Source: a virus. Taken from it: a DNA stretch of 44,059 bases. A program made the position numbers and the translations under genes. The stretch lies in the IMG/VR virus record IMGVR_UViG_3300020120_000022, one strand, 5' to 3'. The notes below the pieces were generated by a model. It was not told the origin of the DNA and searched no databases. It worked only from the letters and a program-made list of their open reading frames with translations. Shown one piece after another: positions 10,680 to 16,244 of this stretch (the first letter of the stretch is position 1; every line of letters starts with the position of its first letter).

Positions 10680-11605
10680 GCCGCCTCCGCTTCGGTCGGA
10701 GCATAGAACTCGGCCACCCGGAGCATCAGCGGCGAAGCGCTGGCCTCGAACGCCTCGCAGCCGGCGATCACCGTCGAATGATCGCGGTTCATCCATTGAC
10801 CGATCTGCGGATAGGAAAAGCCGCGGCGCCGGAAGATCATCATCGCGGTTCGGCGCGCTGGGATGATCTGGGCATTGCGCGAGGCGCCGAGCAGATCGTC
10901 GGCAGTTAGCTTGAACGCCTCGGCCACCGCCTCGACCGTCGCGCGCCAGCCAGTCCGGGGCACCGGGCGCAGTTCGACCAGCTTTGCCGCCAGTGACGCG
11001 CGGGCGGCATGGTCAGGTTCGGTTTTCGCGACCACAGCAACCTCCAGTCCGTTCGCCCGGCGCCAGCGCTGCATCGTGACCTCGTGCTGGTCCTCGATCA
11101 TGCGGCGGGCTTCGATGGCCTTGAAGCCCTTGAGCTTGATCAGGTCCACGTAGTCCTGGCGCAGCTCTTCGGGGCACCATGCCAGCCGAGTAGCGCGCAG
11201 CGAACGAGCCGCTTTGCGCCGGGCCTCCGATCCAGCCGGCTGCGCGGCCTGCCCGATTTTCCAAACCTCGTTCTCGCGGAAGTAGCGGGTGCGGCGCTCG
11301 ATGATACCGGGATCGCGGGCCAGATTGGCAGCCCGGAGTCGCACATCAGCGAGGTAGGTTGGATCGCCGTCGAGCTTGCGCCGGATGCCAGCACGCTGCT
11401 TCTCCCGATAGGCGGGATCACGCATCGCCGCATGGACAGCGTGCTTGCGGCAGAAGCCAGAAGCGTTCGTATGAGAGACGGGTTCGTCGCACACGGTGCA
11501 GCGCTTTTCCTCGCGCGGCTTCTTCCAGCGGGTCGCCACGTGGGCCTTGCACAGGCCGGTGCGGTTGCGGCTGCTGAGTGGGTGGGCGCAGATGGTGCAG
11601 TTCAT
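10676..11605 (-). CDS. DnaA domain IV-like DNA-binding protein with Cys/His-rich N-terminus (putative replication initiator), 309 aa
   Basis: C-terminal ARRTAMMIFRRRGFSYPQIGQWMNRDHSTVIAG resembles the Bac_DnaA_C helix-turn-helix (R..A.q.AMYL.r..t..S...IG..fg.rDHSTV). The N-terminus has CTIC...CKAH and CTVC...CRKH pairs. Confidence 0.65.
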   Translation of the reverse strand: MNCTICAHPLSSRNRTGLCKAHVATRWKKPREEKRCTVCDEPVSHTNASGFCRKHAVHAAMRDPAYREKQRAGIRRKLDGDPTYLADVRLRAANLARDPGIIERRTRYFRENEVWKIGQAAQPAGSEARRKAARSLRATRLAWCPEELRQDYVDLIKLKGFKAIEARRMIEDQHEVTMQRWRRANGLEVAVVAKTEPDHAARASLAAKLVELRPVPRTGWRATVEAVAEAFKLTADDLLGASRNAQIIPARRTAMMIFRRRGFSYPQIGQWMNRDHSTVIAGCEAFEASASPLMLRVAEFYAPTEAEAA

Positions 11606-12012
11606 GCCGCCCTCACCACGGCCAGCTTGACGTTCAGCGCCGCTTCCTCGCTAGGCCCGATCTCCCGCCCATCCTCGCTCTCACGATGATGCGCGCGGTT
11701 CTTGGTCGCGAGATAGTCCTCCATCGCCTCGGCCGCAGCGTCATGATCGACGCCTTCCGGGGCGCGGACGACAAGGAAGCCTTCGGGCAGCAGCAACGAC
11801 AACAAGTCGCCGGGGATCGCGCCGCACAGTGCGTAAATCGCGGACCCAGGGATCGTGGCCGGCTCAGCCTCTCCGCCCGGGAAGTACGAGCGCAGTGTGT
11901 CGTAGGGCAGGCGGGAGTCGTAGGCGACGACCTTGAGGCTAATGGCCCGGCGGTCCAGTTCGCGGCGGATGGCAAGCTGACGCTCGCGGACGATCATCGT
12001 GACGCTAGGCAT
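11602..12012 (-). CDS. Hypothetical regulatory/replication-associated protein, 136 aa
   Basis: ATG at 12012, 5 nt after the upstream stop, and an ATGA overlap with the downstream gene. No firm motif. Confidence 0.55.
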   Translation of the reverse strand: MPSVTMIVRERQLAIRRELDRRAISLKVVAYDSRLPYDTLRSYFPGGEAEPATIPGSAIYALCGAIPGDLLSLLLPEGFLVVRAPEGVDHDAAAEAMEDYLATKNRAHHRESEDGREIGPSEEAALNVKLAVVRAA

Positions 12013-12652: not shown

Positions 12653-12790
12653 TCAGGCGTCGGCGGCGCCGTCTCCGTCCGGTCGGCCCAGGTGGAACCC
12701 GTCGCTGTCCTCGTAGCCCTCAGGGGCCGTGATGAATTCGCGGATGAGGTGCAGCACGCTGATGCCTGCGATGATCAGCGTGGGGATCAT
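12653..12790 (-). CDS. Small membrane protein, 45 aa (below ORF-track cutoff)
   Basis: ATG in an ATGA overlap with the cro-like stop. MIPTLIIAGISVLHLI is a hydrophobic helix followed by an acidic tail. Confidence 0.4.
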   Translation of the reverse strand: MIPTLIIAGISVLHLIREFITAPEGYEDSDGFHLGRPDGDGAADA

Positions 12791-13005
12791 GCGGCGGCGT
12801 CCGTGGGCGTCGAGTACTTGCGCATGAAGTCGAGTACGGTGTGCGCAGTCTTGAGCGTCAACGACCGCCCGGCGCGCATCCCGGCGACGAGATTGGGGTC
12901 GCCAATGGCGTTACGTCCGAATGTGGTGATGCCCATGCCGTGCTGTGCGCAGAATGCTTCCATCTGCTTCAGCAGGTCTGCGTCGCTCGCCAGCTGCGTA
13001 TCCAT
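12787..13005 (-). CDS. Cro-like small early regulator, 72 aa (alternative starts 13017 and 13041)
   Basis: Divergent from the CI-like gene and first gene of the leftward operon. The predicted -10 (13013-13018) lies upstream of the ATG at 13005, so the shorter, nearly leaderless form is favoured. Confidence 0.55.
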   Translation of the reverse strand: MDTQLASDADLLKQMEAFCAQHGMGITTFGRNAIGDPNLVAGMRAGRSLTLKTAHTVLDFMRKYSTPTDAAA

Positions 13006-13008
13006 GAA

Positions 13009-13041
13009 ATCCAACATAGTTGGATATGTCCGACCTTGCAA
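13009..13041 (-). promoter_or_regulatory. Leftward early promoter with operator: TTGCAA-N17-TATGTT, plus the 17-bp palindrome ATCCAACATAGTTGGAT
   Basis: Read on the minus strand: -35 at 13041-13036, the spacer GGTCGGACATATCCAAC (identical to 15806-15822), and -10 at 13018-13013. The perfect 7-3-7 palindrome is at 13009-13025. Confidence 0.5.
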
Positions 13042-13053
13042 GTAGGAAACATC

Positions 13054-13815
13054 ATGCTTCCGTCGATAAGTCCGACGTGGGATTTATCCGACATGACGGA
13101 TGCAACTGCATTGCGGGGCAAGGCGCTATACGACGCGCTTATGCGGCTGAAGCCTGAGAACCTGGTCGAAACTGATTGGGCGACTTCCGCCGGGGTCAAT
13201 CGTGGGTTCTTCTCGAACCTCAAGGCGAAAGAGAACAGCCCGCGCTGTGACACCCTGAGCAAGCTGCTGCGGCACATCGGTAAGACCGAGGCGGACCTAG
13301 ACGAGGGTGTCATCCCGCCGAGCAATGCGCGCGTTGTCAGGTTTGAGGGAGCAAGTGACGTTCATCTGCCGAGAGACGTGCCTGTGTTTGGTACATCGCT
13401 TGGCGCGCCTCTTGAGTTCGACGGGGAAGCGATCGAGCAAACGATGCTCAACACGGGAAATACCATTGCGTACCTGCCACGCCCGACCGTCTTAAACGGC
13501 CAGAAATACGCCTACGGCCTCTATGTGCAGGGATCTTCCATGGCCCCGCGCTTCGAGGATGGGGAAACCATTTTTGTCACTGATTGCCGCCATTCCAAGC
13601 CGCCCAAGATTGGCGATGACGTAGTGGTCTACATCCGCGATTGCGAGGACGACGACGGCGAGCGCGCAGTGGGGGTTCTCGTGAAGCGGCTTGTCCGGAG
13701 AACTGCCAATTACGTCGAGCTGGAGCAGTTCACCCCGGCGGTTACGTTCCAGATCGAGGCGAGCAAAATCCTGCGTATGGATCGGGTCATCCCCTGGATG
13801 GAATTGCTATCGTGA
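13054..13815 (+). CDS. CI-like repressor with LexA/S24 autopeptidase domain, 253 aa
   Basis: C-terminal GSSMAPRFEDGE (catalytic Ser) and VKRL (Lys) form an S24 dyad. There is an N-terminal HTH-like region. AGGA lies 6 nt before the ATG at 13054, and the gene is divergent from the cro-like gene. Confidence 0.85.
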   Translation: MLPSISPTWDLSDMTDATALRGKALYDALMRLKPENLVETDWATSAGVNRGFFSNLKAKENSPRCDTLSKLLRHIGKTEADLDEGVIPPSNARVVRFEGASDVHLPRDVPVFGTSLGAPLEFDGEAIEQTMLNTGNTIAYLPRPTVLNGQKYAYGLYVQGSSMAPRFEDGETIFVTDCRHSKPPKIGDDVVVYIRDCEDDDGERAVGVLVKRLVRRTANYVELEQFTPAVTFQIEASKILRMDRVIPWMELLS

Positions 13816-13834
13816 TCTGGATAGGGAGGTGGAT

Positions 13835-14218
13835 TTGAGAAAGGCAAGCGTCATTCTGGCCGCACTAGCCACGTCATCTGCGGCCGGCGCGCAAACTACA
13901 AATTGCAACTGGTCTGGCCCAACTTGGCAATGCCGGCAGCAGCCTGATTTCCATACCCCACCAGTCCAGACGCCGAATGCGGGATCAATGCTGGACGCTT
14001 ATCGCGCTGGGCGTGAAGATCGACAACGCTACGAAGAAGCGCACAGAGCCACGCCGCCTCCTGCCGCGACACAGGACAGTGGACCAGATTTCGTGCGGTA
14101 CAAAGTCATCCAACTATTACGACGCGGAGACTGTGCTGGCGCCGCGGACATCGCATTGGCGGGTGGCGACATTGATTTGGCTGCCAAGGCAAAGGCTTAC
14201 TGCAACCCCACCCCCTGA
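13835..14218 (+). CDS. Secreted (Sec signal peptide) Cys-containing protein, 127 aa
   Basis: TTG start 5-6 nt after GGGAGG, 20 nt after the cI stop. MRKASVILAALATSSAAGA-Q signal peptide and four Cys in the mature part. Confidence 0.55.
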   Translation: MRKASVILAALATSSAAGAQTTNCNWSGPTWQCRQQPDFHTPPVQTPNAGSMLDAYRAGREDRQRYEEAHRATPPPAATQDSGPDFVRYKVIQLLRRGDCAGAADIALAGGDIDLAAKAKAYCNPTP

Positions 14219-14242
14219 CCGGATGGGAGCGAGGGAGAGATT

Positions 14243-14440
14243 ATGGATTATCGAGTGTACGGATTCGATCAAACGGGCGCGCGTCATGAGGTCACCTCCA
14301 CGCCGTCCGCCCGAGTTGCCCGCACGTACAGGGACGCAGGCAACAGCCCCTGGGACAGGGTCGAGGTATTCGGCGCCGACGGCGCATTGTCGGTCGAGCA
14401 GCTCAACCGTTTGGCTGAAATAGATCACAGGTACAGTTGA
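14243..14440 (+). CDS. Hypothetical protein, 65 aa
   Basis: ATG preceded by GAGGGAGAG. Same strand and operon as cI. Confidence 0.6.
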   Translation: MDYRVYGFDQTGARHEVTSTPSARVARTYRDAGNSPWDRVEVFGADGALSVEQLNRLAEIDHRYS

Positions 14441-14447
14441 GGCGATC

Positions 14448-14924
14448 ATGAGGGTGAGGGCCGCCGCACGCCTGAGGAAGATCATCACGTCAGATACGCG
14501 GTGGAAGCGGGATGACGTTCAGCGGCGGTATTGCCCGATCAACAGCAGAACCAAGCCGATCCGGGCAGGTTGGGAGTGGCGGTCGCTCAAGGCCGCGTCA
14601 GATGACGGACGGAAATTCATCGCCTACCTCGAAGCGAATGTGCGCAAGGGCGATTTCAAATCAGTGCTGATTGAGGAGACCGTTAACGGCCCATCAGTGA
14701 TTGCCCGTTACGAATATCACTCCAGCCACCCAGGCATTCACGTCCACGCTCATTGTGAGCGAAGCGGGATCGAAATTGGGGCAAGCGGGATGGATAAACT
14801 GGAACGAGCGCCGCGCGTGAAGGAGCGGCACCGGCGGATCAGCGCATTATCTCTATCGACATTTCTGGCGGCAGCGAGCAGATTCTACGGTATGGAGTAC
14901 GATACTGGCCCTCTCTTTTCGTGA
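14448..14924 (+). CDS. Hypothetical protein, 158 aa, basic N-terminus and His cluster (YHSSHPGIHVHAHC)
   Basis: ATG 8 nt after the upstream stop with GAGG upstream. Its stop overlaps the start of the next gene (TGATG). Confidence 0.65.
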   Translation: MRVRAAARLRKIITSDTRWKRDDVQRRYCPINSRTKPIRAGWEWRSLKAASDDGRKFIAYLEANVRKGDFKSVLIEETVNGPSVIARYEYHSSHPGIHVHAHCERSGIEIGASGMDKLERAPRVKERHRRISALSLSTFLAAASRFYGMEYDTGPLFS

Positions 14925-15694
14925 TGTTGCAGGAGCTTGAATCCAAGCTCTGCTCCGCCTTTTGCGGGGGGCTGCAAGTTCATCCCGTACCGGCCGGATA
15001 CGCGGTGTCTTCGGCGTTCGAGGATAGCTCCGGGGACCGAATTTCATTCTACATCACCGAGACGCCAGACGGCTACCAGATTGAGGATGATGGCAGCTAC
15101 CTTGCCGATCTTGTCGCCAGAGACATCAACATAGAGACTGGCGCCCGTGGCGAACTGCTGAAAGCGATCCTCACCGAGGGTCAGGCTTATTGGGACCCAG
15201 ACACTTACGAGATCAAGTCCAGCGGGGTGGTCAACGGGGATCTACCTGGTCGCGCAATCCAGTTCTTATCGTCGCTGATCCGTGTACGCGACTTGGCGTT
15301 GATCACCAGAGAGCGCGTCCGTTCCGCCTTTCGCGAGGATTTCATTCGCGCCCTCACGACCCGCTTTGGCGACGACTTGGACATCCGTGAGAACGTGGCG
15401 CCCGCGAACGATCTGGCAGACTTCCCCGCGGATGTCGTATTAACCACCCCCGACCGGCGGGTTGGCGCGATCTATCTCGTCAACACCAATGACAAACTCA
15501 ACGAGGCCCACCTCGCTTGGCTTGAATCTCGCGAGCGGCATTCCGAGGTTGTGACCATCGCCGTGCTGGAGGACATGGAATCCATCAGCAAGAAGCGGTT
15601 TCAACGAGCTTTGAACCGTCGCCTGCCCACGACCATATTTCGTGGTGACGAGGAAGGCGCAATGGACTTCGTAACGAGCGTGATCACCGCCTAA
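14924..15694 (+). CDS. DUF1828/DUF1829-like two-domain protein, 256 aa
   Basis: The N-terminal segment ISFYITETPDGYQIEDDGSYLADLVARDINIETGARGELLKAIL and the C-terminal FPADVVLTT...IYLVNTNDKLNEAHLAWLESRE fit my recollection of DUF1828 followed by DUF1829. This was not searched. Confidence 0.5.
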   Translation: MLQELESKLCSAFCGGLQVHPVPAGYAVSSAFEDSSGDRISFYITETPDGYQIEDDGSYLADLVARDINIETGARGELLKAILTEGQAYWDPDTYEIKSSGVVNGDLPGRAIQFLSSLIRVRDLALITRERVRSAFREDFIRALTTRFGDDLDIRENVAPANDLADFPADVVLTTPDRRVGAIYLVNTNDKLNEAHLAWLESRERHSEVVTIAVLEDMESISKKRFQRALNRRLPTTIFRGDEEGAMDFVTSVITA

Positions 15695-15723
15695 CCGACC
15701 CACCCTCTCAGGGTCGCAGGGAG

Positions 15724-15754
15724 CCGCCTCGGGAAACCGGGGCGGTTTTCGTTT
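15724..15754 (+). terminator. Intrinsic terminator closing the repressor operon
   Basis: CCGCCTCGG-GAAA-CCGGGGCGG (9-bp stem with one G-U pair and a GNRA loop) followed by TTTTCGTTT. Confidence 0.8.
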
Positions 15755-15763
15755 GTGGATACA

Positions 15764-15830
15764 GTTGGAAATAAATGTCAGAAGAATCCAACATCACGCT
15801 TGACGGGTCGGACATATCCAACTAATCCAA
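15764..15830 (+). promoter_or_regulatory. Rightward early promoter with operators: TTGACG-N17-TAATCC
   Basis: -35 at 15800-15805, spacer GGTCGGACATATCCAAC at 15806-15822, and -10 at 15823-15828. ATCCAAC half-sites at 15786, 15816 and 15825, and GTTGGA at 15764. Confidence 0.5.
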
Positions 15831-15884
15831 TCTCCAGACAGCCGGTGAGCGAAACGCAGACCCGGCCAAGTTTGGAGACGCCCC

Positions 15885-16244
15885 ATGTGGTACACCACCC
15901 CCGAAGCCCTCGCGATCATCGCGCGGATCACGGCAAAGCCCGCGGTCATCCTGCATGAGCGCCGCTTCCCCCGCACGACTGACCGCTGGTACGAGTTTGC
16001 CGGCCCCGAGGTCGACGCCCTGTTTGCGCTCTACAACGCTGCTTTCCGCGCCGCCGATCACGACGATCGCCTGCGCGCCATGGTCATTCAGACTAACCCC
16101 GAGGACGTGATCGGCGCGTTGTGGGGTGACCCCAACGGCAACCAGTACTTCCGCACCGATCGCGACGCTGGCCGCACCTGGCAGAGCCTGCGCGAGCAGA
16201 TCGGCGAGGCAATGGCCGAGCATGCCATGCAGGTGGCGGCATGA
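15885..16244 (+). CDS. Hypothetical early protein, 119 aa
   Basis: ATG with GGAG 7 nt upstream. First gene after the rightward promoter. Confidence 0.65.
   Translation: MWYTTPEALAIIARITAKPAVILHERRFPRTTDRWYEFAGPEVDALFALYNAAFRAADHDDRLRAMVIQTNPEDVIGALWGDPNGNQYFRTDRDAGRTWQSLREQIGEAMAEHAMQVAA

What the first reader, a model, noticed from the sequence alone, without database searches (positions are those of the whole stretch)
14448..15694. Coupled 158-aa + DUF1828/DUF1829-like gene pair inside the repressor operon: candidate uncharacterised prophage defence/exclusion module
Seen in sequence:
- Two genes on the same strand as the CI-like repressor.
- No terminator between cI and them.
- The stop of the first overlaps the start of the second (TGATG at 14922-14926).
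- A strong intrinsic terminator (15724-15754) follows immediately, just before the early-right operator.

Established knowledge: this is the slot that lambda rexAB and other lysogeny-expressed exclusion or abortive-infection genes occupy.

The first protein has no motif I can name apart from a His cluster (YHSSHPGIHVHAHC) and a very basic N-terminus. The second looks like a DUF1828+DUF1829 two-domain protein, a family with no assigned function to my knowledge.

Inference: the pair is expressed in the lysogen and acts on incoming phage or on the cell envelope or DNA.
Basis: partly seen in the sequence, partly recalled or inferred. Interest (0 to 1): 0.8.

Follow-up and report, generated by a model that had tools for sequence, protein, structure and literature searches.

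The report
Coupled two-gene cassette behind prophage repressor
Two overlapping genes of unknown function sit behind the repressor of a temperate phage, in the slot that lambda's rexAB exclusion genes occupy; the same pair recurs in over a hundred loci, often in phage repressor operons and once inside a DISARM locus, so it is a good but untested candidate anti-phage system.

Summary
Genes A (14448-14924, 158 aa) and B (14921/14924-15694) overlap and end a five-gene operon headed by an S24 cI-like repressor. A hairpin terminator follows, then a second copy of the operator motif.

- **B:** it has a Pfam DUF1828 domain and a diverged DUF1829-like C-terminal domain. It matches PADLOC's untested candidate PDC-M24B.
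- **A:** it belongs to an unnamed family with an invariant His/Cys cluster. Its confident AlphaFold model has no PDB or BFVD neighbour. It is at most a remote relative of DUF6978 (PDC-M24A).
- **Co-occurrence:** A directly precedes B in every evaluable locus (IMG/VR 23/23, metagenome 76/76, nine isolate-genome or metagenome loci looked up by exact protein). Sixty-seven of 72 junctions overlap.
- **Contexts:** repressor operons of temperate phages, a DrmD–methylase (DISARM-like) locus, next to an HsdM-like methylase, an ICE, and solo islets.
- **Sister cassette:** DUF6978 + DUF1828 holds the same cI-downstream slot in P. aeruginosa prophages and lies in a Staphylococcus lysogeny module.
- **Charge:** A is basic and B acidic throughout the family.

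Best reading: a lysogen-expressed anti-phage or exclusion cassette. No experiment exists and the mechanism is unknown. I call it a new variant of a catalogued candidate.

The parts
12787..13041 (-). 84-aa ORF in the cro position, divergent from cI. It leads toward the leftward primase/helicase genes.
   Evidence: ORF list. No PHROG hit. Assigned by position only.
13008..13036 (.). Operator-like region between the cro-position ORF and cI. It holds the perfect palindrome ATCCAAC-ATA-GTTGGAT (13009-13025) and a 20-mer that is repeated after the terminator.
   Evidence: k-mer and palindrome search.
13054..13815 (+). cI-like repressor with a C-terminal Peptidase_S24 domain; first gene of the operon. 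The start is ATG 13054 (AGGAA ribosome-binding site) or ATG 13093.
   Evidence: Pfam Peptidase_S24 1.3e-6; phrog_4 transcriptional repressor 7e-13.
13835..14218 (+). 127-aa protein with an N-terminal hydrophobic signal-like segment and 4 Cys; second gene of the operon.
   Evidence: ORF and sequence. No family hit.
14243..14440 (+). 65-aa ORF; third gene of the operon. It travels with A and B as one 1.55-kb block in a heteroimmune relative.
   Evidence: L042 is 99.7% identical to window 14204-15755 only. No family hit.
14448..14924 (+). Gene A: 158 aa, pI 10.2, with the cluster E89 H91 H94 H98 H100 C103 (H98 invariant, the rest invariant or nearly so by family depth). It belongs to an unnamed family of standalone 150-180 aa proteins.
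   Evidence: 224 clusters in the exhaustive profile search. AF2 pLDDT 94.8. No PDB or BFVD neighbour. No Pfam, PHROG, NCBIfam or PADLOC hit.
14921..15694 (+). Gene B: 256/257 aa, pI 4.7. It has DUF1828 at residues 33-121 and a diverged DUF1829-like C-terminal domain (invariant D171, E217, N232).
   Evidence: Pfam DUF1828 2e-9. PADLOC PDC-M24B 6e-15. phrog_5059 1e-22. hhalign to a Staphylococcus DUF1828+DUF1829 protein: 97.2% over residues 16-249.
15719..15758 (+). Intrinsic terminator ending the cI operon: a GC-rich hairpin with a GAAA loop, then TTTTCGTTT.
   Evidence: RNA fold. The simple pattern scan does not list it.
15785..15832 (.). Second operator-like region with ATCCAAC half-sites and the inverted copy of the 20-mer, ahead of the rightward operon (exonuclease, recombinase, integrase).
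   Evidence: Shared k-mers with 13008-13036. PHROG hits of the downstream genes.

Best explanation
A and B form a horizontally mobile, translationally coupled two-gene cassette. It is a diverged alphaproteobacterial branch of the DUF6978 + DUF1828/DUF1829 pair that PADLOC lists as the untested candidate PDC-M24.

**Shown here.** In this phage the cassette sits between cI and the second operator. That is the position lambda rexA-rexB hold between cI and OL.

**Inferred, step 1.** It is transcribed with the repressor in the lysogen.

**Inferred, step 2.** Its most likely role is to protect the lysogen against other phages, by exclusion or abortive infection.

**Inferred, step 3.** The two proteins are made in a fixed ratio and form a complex. 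The strongly basic A carries a conserved His/Cys cluster that looks like a metal or active site, and is the enzymatic or nucleic-acid-binding component. The acidic B, with DUF1828 and a domain of the PD-(D/E)xK clan, binds or holds A and senses the trigger. Infection would release or activate the complex against nucleic acid.

Which protein is the effector is not settled.
For: - **Strict pairing:** A directly precedes B in IMG/VR 23/23 loci, in 76/76 evaluable metagenome loci, and in all nine isolate-genome or metagenome loci looked up by exact protein. Of 72 non-redundant junctions, 67 overlap, 54 of them by NTGA.
- **Repressor operon slot:** the upstream same-strand ORF is Peptidase_S24 in 12 of 49 non-redundant loci and HTH_3/HTH_31 in 5 each, sets that may overlap the S24 ones. 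Rhizobium phage RHph_N28_2 has S24 repressor - A - B.
- **Sister cassette:** DUF6978 + DUF1828 follows cI in Pseudomonas phage phita81A and in six P. aeruginosa prophage places with different cI/Cro alleles. The identical DUF6978 protein is indexed in more than 1,400 blocks. A Staphylococcus element has XRE repressor ... DUF6978 - DUF1828+DUF1829 - integrase.
- **Defence association:** B matches PDC-M24B at 6e-15. L078 reads DrmD (1e-210) - A - B - MTase_III (7e-183). L083 reads HsdM-like methylase - A - B. In L132/L133 the pair sits in an ICE with AbiEii nearby. DefensePredictor scores an E. coli DUF1828+DUF1829 protein as a predicted novel defence gene. It also validated a system whose second protein carries DUF1829.
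- **Lambda-like layout:** operator motifs lie on both sides of the cI operon, with a terminator after B.
- **Independent of the repressor:** the s65-A-B block is 99.7% identical in a relative that has a different repressor.
- **Charge complementarity:** median pI is 9.7 for A (97% above 8) and 4.85 for B (all below 6).
- **DNA link:** a HIRAN-domain gene follows B directly in five sphingomonad prophage loci.
Against: - No experiment exists for this pair or for PDC-M24. PDCs are explicitly untested, and two other PDCs showed no defence when tested in their native host.
- A has no hit to PDC-M24A or DUF6978 models: 0 of 112 family members.
- B's C-terminal domain lacks a conserved canonical (D/E)xK motif, so nuclease activity is doubtful.
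- In the one validated system with DUF1829 (HipAD), the DUF1829 protein is thought to be the antitoxin-like partner, not the effector.
- Many copies lie between housekeeping genes with no defence neighbour.
- Transcription in the lysogen is inferred from gene spacing only.
Confidence: 0.55

Rival explanations
1. The pair is a toxin-antitoxin-type addiction module. It stabilises the prophage, ICE or islet that carries it. One protein is toxic (for example the basic A) and the other neutralises it (the acidic B). Any anti-phage effect would be secondary.
For: - It is a small, autonomous, mobile two-gene cassette with overlapping genes.
- It occurs as solo islets between housekeeping genes and next to an IS fragment.
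- A and B have conserved opposite charges.
- The DUF1829 protein of HipAD is proposed to be antitoxin-like.
Against: - There is no similarity to any known toxin or antitoxin family in Pfam, NCBIfam or PADLOC.
- B, at 257 aa with two domains, is large for an antitoxin.
- The repeated placement in repressor operons and inside DISARM/RM loci is more typical of defence genes.
- This reading is not exclusive of the defence reading.
Confidence: 0.2
2. The pair is an accessory of the lysis-lysogeny switch, such as an anti-repressor or an induction sensor. A would act on the repressor as an ImmA-like metalloprotease.
For: - The pair lies directly downstream of the repressor in many phages.
- Some loci have short XRE repressors without an S24 domain.
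- A has a His-rich putative metal site.
Against: - The same cassette, at 99.7% identity, sits behind a different repressor in L042.
- It follows at least three cI/Cro alleles in P. aeruginosa.
- It occurs with no repressor at all in L002, L003, L078 and L130.
- A has no HEXXH motif.
- Most partner repressors carry their own S24 autoprotease domain.
Confidence: 0.07
3. The pair is a lysogenic-conversion moron that changes host physiology, for instance DNA repair or stress response, and has no role in phage-phage conflict.
For: - Both functions are unknown.
- A HIRAN (DNA-end binding) gene is attached in some loci.
- Chromosomal solo copies exist.
Against: - A window-type pair is embedded between DrmD and a methylase.
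- B matches a candidate family defined by embedding in BREX, DISARM or type I RM loci.
Confidence: 0.12

Closest known systems
PADLOC phage defence candidate PDC-M24 (cassette CAS_00098; DUF6978 protein followed by a DUF1828/DUF1829 protein)
   Same: - B matches the PDC-M24B model (6e-15).
- Both have a ~160-170 aa protein first and a ~260 aa DUF1828 protein second, with overlapping genes.
- Both sit downstream of cI in temperate phages.
- Both are found embedded in defence loci.
- The A family aligns colinearly with DUF6978: an N-terminal Lys, the strand ending ARY[EN], then the His residues and HxH.
   Different: - A is not detected by PDC-M24A or DUF6978 models: 0 of 112 members.
- Profile-profile probability is only 13.9% (P 0.002).
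- The loop between the His motifs is much shorter in A.
- A is strongly basic (median pI 9.7), whereas DUF6978 is near neutral (6.4).
- PADLOC would not call the system here.
- PDC-M24 itself has never been tested.
Lambda rexA-rexB (exclusion genes co-transcribed with cI)
   Same: - The slot is the same: downstream of cI in the same operon, between the two operator regions and ended by a terminator.
- Both are two genes expressed, by inference here, in the lysogen.
   Different: - No sequence similarity was found, and PADLOC gives no Rex hit at E <= 1.
- Neither A nor B has a hydrophobic segment that could be a membrane helix, whereas RexB is a membrane protein by established knowledge.
- Unlike rexAB, the pair is also common outside phages.
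HipAD / DS-6 of DefensePredictor (HipA-like kinase plus a DUF3037+DUF1829 protein)
   Same: - It is a validated two-gene anti-phage system whose second protein carries a DUF1829 domain.
- The first gene is the proposed active component and the second the partner.
   Different: - The first protein there is a kinase, not an A-like protein.
- The partner has DUF3037 rather than DUF1828.
E. coli DUF1828+DUF1829 protein WP_000968518.1 (DefensePredictor 'predicted novel defense gene')
   Same: It has the same two-domain layout and length: 250 aa, with DUF1828 at 25-114 and DUF1829 at 155-241.
   Different: - It is only predicted, and I did not find it among the validated systems.
- I could not fetch its sequence or its neighbours.

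Membership tests
PADLOC PDC-M24 | Second protein matches the PDC-M24B model | tested here: met
   PDLC04539 scores E 6.2e-15 over residues 28-233 of 257. Window-type B proteins in L078 and L083 also match.
PADLOC PDC-M24 | First protein matches the PDC-M24A model (Pfam DUF6978) | tested here: not met
   - No PADLOC or Pfam hit at E <= 1 for A.
- 0 of 112 A-family members hit PDC-M24A.
- hhalign of the A family against DUF6978 gives probability 13.9%, P 0.002.
- hmmsearch gives a best E of 0.004 among 65 sequences.
PADLOC PDC-M24 | Two adjacent same-strand genes, small protein first | tested here: met
PADLOC PDC-M24 | Found embedded in BREX, DISARM or type I RM loci (the basis of the candidate) | tested here: met
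   L078 reads DrmD - A - B - MTase_III. L083 reads HsdM-like methylase - A - B.
PADLOC PDC-M24 | Anti-phage activity | not testable with these tools
   No experimental report was found for PDC-M24, DUF1828 or DUF6978.
Pfam DUF1828 | Match above the gathering score | tested here: met
   38 bits against a cut-off of 22, residues 33-121. All 27 family members match.
Pfam DUF1829 (clan PDDEXK) | Match to the DUF1829 model in the C-terminal domain | tested here: inconclusive
   - No Pfam hit at E <= 1 in 27 of 27 members.
- The B profile aligns to a Staphylococcus protein with genuine DUF1828 (1e-25) and DUF1829 (1e-13) across residues 16-249, at 97.2% probability.
- The clan assignment is taken from DefensePredictor Table S5.
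PD-(D/E)xK nucleases | Conserved D ... (D/E)xK catalytic motif | tested here: not met
   D171 and E217 are invariant. The position corresponding to (D/E)xK reads NDK, ESK, KEK or TTS in different members. No structure model of B could be made.
Lambda RexAB | Sequence similarity to RexA/RexB, and a membrane-spanning second protein | tested here: not met
   PADLOC gives only PDC-M24B. The maximum 19-residue hydropathy is 1.08 for A and 0.88 for B.
Lambda RexAB | Position downstream of cI, within the immunity region and in the cI operon | tested here: met
HIT (histidine triad) superfamily | HxHxHxx motif on a HIT fold | tested here: not met
   The window has HVHAHC, but the third His varies across the family (D, S, T, C). 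Foldseek of the pLDDT 94.8 model finds no HIT protein (best E 1.4). There is no PDB sequence hit.
Type II toxin-antitoxin families | Match to a known toxin or antitoxin domain | tested here: not met
   No Pfam, NCBIfam or PADLOC hit apart from DUF1828 and PDC-M24B.

The most novel reading that the evidence does not exclude
A and B are a mechanistically new anti-phage system.

- The effector would be a basic His/Cys-cluster protein whose fold has no solved or predicted-viral relative.
- The acidic DUF1828 + DUF1829-like partner would hold it in check.
- Together with its DUF6978 sister branch, it would be one of the most widespread exclusion cassettes of temperate-phage repressor operons, from Staphylococcus to Pseudomonas to sphingomonads.
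- It would have been overlooked because gene A is often not called and matches no model.
Probability: 0.3. Interest if true: 0.8.

Novelty: new variant of a known kind. Interest (0 to 1): 0.6.

Why it matters
- **A general rexAB-like slot:** if the cassette protects lysogens, repressor operons across distant bacterial phyla would share one filler for the rexAB-type slot, and its two protein families have no known biochemistry.
- **A tractable model:** the P. aeruginosa version is very common (the identical protein is indexed in more than 1,400 blocks) and sits in culturable prophages, so the question can be tested directly.
- **An annotation gap:** gene A is missed or truncated by gene callers in most isolate records examined, and no current model detects it. 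Defence-finding tools that need both genes therefore skip this branch.

Tried and rejected
- **Family scans of A:** Pfam, PHROGs, NCBIfam and PADLOC gave nothing.
- **PDB sequence searches:** profiles of A, B and DUF6978 gave nothing meaningful.
- **Foldseek of the A model:** no match against PDB or BFVD; best E 1.4 and 0.13, TM below 0.35.
- **HIT-superfamily idea from HVHAH:** rejected on fold and on conservation of the third His.
- **ImmA-like anti-repressor idea:** rejected, because the cassette is independent of the repressor allele and occurs without a repressor.
- **RexAB homology:** rejected.
- **Plasmids:** tblastn of B against plasmids found nothing.
- **Phages:** blastn of the region against phages found nothing.
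- **First k-mer search for A:** it found only 9 relatives, which wrongly suggested that A is rare. The exhaustive profile search and six-frame analysis of B loci corrected this.

Full report
**1. What is in the sequence**

The + strand of 13054-15694 carries five tightly packed genes:
- an S24 cI-like repressor (Pfam Peptidase_S24 1.3e-6, phrog_4 'transcriptional repressor' 7e-13);
- a 127-aa protein with a signal-like N-terminus (13835-14218);
- a 65-aa ORF (14243-14440);
- gene A (14448-14924, 158 aa);
- gene B (14921 or 14924 to 15694).

The gaps are 19, 24 and 7 nt. A and B overlap in GTGATG at 14921-14926. No + strand terminator pattern lies inside the operon. A hairpin at 15719-15750 followed by TTTTCGTTT ends it; the simple scan had not listed this hairpin.

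The intergenic region between the cro-position ORF (12787-13041, - strand) and cI holds a perfect palindrome, ATCCAACATAGTTGGAT. Its sequence recurs just after the terminator: the 20-mer 13017-13036 is inverted at 15806-15825, and AATCCAACAT is at both 13008 and 15785.

So the cI operon lies between two operator-like regions. This is the layout of lambda, where cI-rexA-rexB lie between OR and OL (established knowledge).

The flanks are phage-like. Primase and primase/helicase genes lie leftward. An exonuclease, a recombinase, an integrase and a methyltransferase lie rightward. The immunity region has lower G+C (0.57-0.59 against 0.63-0.68; GC3 0.67-0.71 against 0.78-0.84).

**2. The two proteins**

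*B.* It has DUF1828 at residues 33-121 (E 2e-9). It matches PADLOC PDC-M24B (6e-15) and phrog_5059, whose function is unknown (1e-22). Pfam's DUF1829 model hits none of 27 family members. The family profile does align over residues 16-249 to a Staphylococcus epidermidis protein with genuine DUF1828 and DUF1829 domains, at 97.2% probability. The C-terminal domain is therefore a diverged DUF1829-like domain.

DefensePredictor's Table S5 places DUF1829 in the PDDEXK clan. However, no canonical (D/E)xK motif is conserved in B. The invariant residues are D171, E217 and N232.

*A.* It has no hit in Pfam, PHROGs, NCBIfam or PADLOC. An exhaustive profile search finds 224 clusters at 50% identity. Nearly all are standalone proteins of 150-180 aa with the hallmark E-x-H-x-x-H-P-G-x-H-x-H-x-x-C.

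With a 112-sequence alignment AlphaFold2 gives pLDDT 94.8 and pTM 0.89. Foldseek finds nothing in PDB (best E 1.4, TM below 0.35) or in BFVD (best E 0.13).

A is basic (pI 10.2) and B is acidic (pI 4.7), and neither has a membrane-like segment. This charge split holds across the families: A has median pI 9.7 with 97% above 8, and B has median 4.85 with all below 6.

**3. Co-occurrence**

Every B locus with enough upstream sequence has an A gene directly upstream:
- 23 of 23 IMG/VR loci;
- 76 of 76 evaluable metagenome loci, out of 80;
- all nine isolate-genome or metagenome loci looked up by exact protein.

Of 72 non-redundant junctions, 54 overlap by 4 nt (NTGA), 13 overlap by 7-20 nt, 4 have gaps of 1-22 nt, and one (a decayed copy) could not be scored.

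My first k-mer search had suggested that A is rare, with 9 relatives. The reason is annotation. A is absent or truncated in the gene calls of L039, L040, L041, L129, L131 and L132, although the ORF is intact in five of them and cut short only in L129.

**4. Relation to PDC-M24**

In Pseudomonas phage phita81A the order is cro, cI, an 84-aa gene, a 172-aa protein that matches PDC-M24A (1.2e-8) and Pfam DUF6978 (7e-12), then an overlapping DUF1828 protein that matches PDC-M24B.

The window's A family and DUF6978 are not linked by standard models. Three results point to remote homology without proving it:
- hhalign gives P 0.002 (probability 13.9%);
- the alignment is colinear over the full length;
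- the A-family HMM scores DUF6978 proteins at E 0.004 among 65 sequences.

Size, gene order, partner and the strand-plus-His motif (ARY[EN]...H...HxH) agree between the two. I treat A as a probable distant sister of DUF6978.

PDC systems are untested candidates. They were defined by embedding in BREX, DISARM or type I RM loci, and PDC-M24 is cassette CAS_00098. I found no experimental work on PDC-M24, DUF1828 or DUF6978.

**5. Contexts**

*Repressor operons.*
- Rhizobium phage RHph_N28_2 has S24 repressor - A homologue - B.
- Among 49 non-redundant loci, the upstream same-strand ORF is Peptidase_S24 in 12 and HTH_3 or HTH_31 in 5 each; these sets may overlap the S24 ones.
- A Novosphingobium prophage has cro | cI - A - B - HIRAN.
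- Six P. aeruginosa places all show Cro | cI - (216 aa) - 84 aa - DUF6978 - DUF1828 with different cI/Cro alleles. The identical DUF6978 protein is indexed in more than 1,400 blocks.
- A Staphylococcus element has XRE repressor ... DUF6978 - DUF1828+DUF1829 - integrase.

*Defence loci.* L078 reads DrmD (1e-210) - A - B - type III methylase (7e-183). L083 reads an HsdM-like methylase - A - B.

*Other mobile elements.* The pair occurs in an ICE with TraG and AbiEii and next to an IS240 fragment.

*Solo islets.* Copies lie between housekeeping genes: MiaB-like and GST, TldD, and an ABC transporter and fumarase.

*Mosaicism.* Contig L042 is 99.7% identical to window 14204-15755 (65-aa gene, A, B, terminator). 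It has a different repressor and a different secreted protein upstream.

**6. Interpretation**

*Shown:*
- a strictly paired, translationally coupled, mobile cassette;
- repeated capture into the cI operon of unrelated temperate phages;
- occasional embedding in DISARM or RM loci;
- conserved opposite charge of the two proteins;
- a conserved His/Cys cluster in a protein with no structural neighbour in the libraries available.

*Inferred:*
- expression in the lysogen;
- complex formation;
- an anti-phage role;
- action on nucleic acid, suggested by the PDDEXK-clan domain, the basic A, and the HIRAN gene attached after B in five sphingomonad prophage loci.

The effector is unknown. In HipAD, the one validated system with a DUF1829 domain, the DUF1829 protein is thought to be the neutralising partner. 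By analogy this favours A as the active component and B as holder or sensor.

*Rivals:*
- An addiction-type toxin-antitoxin module. This is not exclusive of defence.
- A switch accessory. This is disfavoured because the cassette is independent of the repressor allele and occurs without any repressor.
- A host-physiology moron.

**7. Verdict**

Its interpretation passes every in-silico test it proposed, but it remains an inference from association.

The pair is not wholly new. It is a diverged branch of PADLOC's untested PDC-M24, and current tools would miss it because A matches no model and is often not called. I rate it a new variant of a known candidate kind, with interest 0.6.

Noticed in passing
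window 14204-15755; L042 1-4801: A second metagenome contig shares the block 65-aa gene + A + B + terminator at 99.7% identity. It has a different repressor (L042 1814-2566) and a different signal-peptide protein (L042 2586-3251). Identity resumes only at L042 1-134, which matches window 11478-11611. This looks like a swap of the immunity region between heteroimmune relatives that keeps the cassette.
   Followed up: partly
L039 6531-7004, L040 6448-6999, L041 6528-7004, L129 5542-5889, L131 5528-6004, L132 5522-6004: Gene A is not called, or is called as a 44- or 101-aa stub, in the gene calls of isolate genomes and assemblies (Sphingobium ba1, Bradyrhizobium diazoefficiens, two Novosphingobium and others). 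The ORF is intact in all but L129, where it ends about 110 nt before B. This makes the A family look rare in protein databases.
   Followed up: yes
L122 2984-3432 (S. epidermidis plasmid NZ_CP121501.1): The RefSeq DUF6978 gene is annotated as 78 aa from an internal ATG. The ORF extends to an ATG at 2984 preceded by AAAGGAGG, which would give about 149 aa.
   Followed up: partly
L001 8801-9202; L007 7266-7664; L008 7283-7669; L039 7796-8194; L131 6790-7203: A 130-137 aa HIRAN-domain gene follows B with 0-20 nt spacing in the sphingomonad prophages closest to the window. The window has a terminator at that position instead.
   Followed up: partly
window 13835-14218 and 14243-14440: Two further small genes lie between cI and A: a 127-aa protein with a signal-like N-terminus and 4 Cys, and a 65-aa protein. 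Neither has a family hit. They could be additional lysogen-expressed morons.
   Followed up: no
window 13008-13036 and 15785-15832: Operator-like ATCCAAC half-sites and a shared 20-mer flank the cI operon on both sides. A perfect 7-3-7 palindrome lies at 13009-13025.
   Followed up: partly
L036 6004-6779; L037 5741-6784: Two IMG/VR loci carry decayed copies. B is split by a frameshift in both, and A is cut to 89 aa in L037.
   Followed up: no
L078 759-6877: In this DISARM-like locus the DrmD ORF overlaps the start of A by 11 nt, and a type III methylase follows B by 18 nt. The cassette appears to be fully embedded in one transcription unit.
   Followed up: partly
window 13001-16000: G+C falls to 0.57-0.59 across the whole immunity region, against 0.63-0.68 elsewhere in the window.
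   Followed up: no
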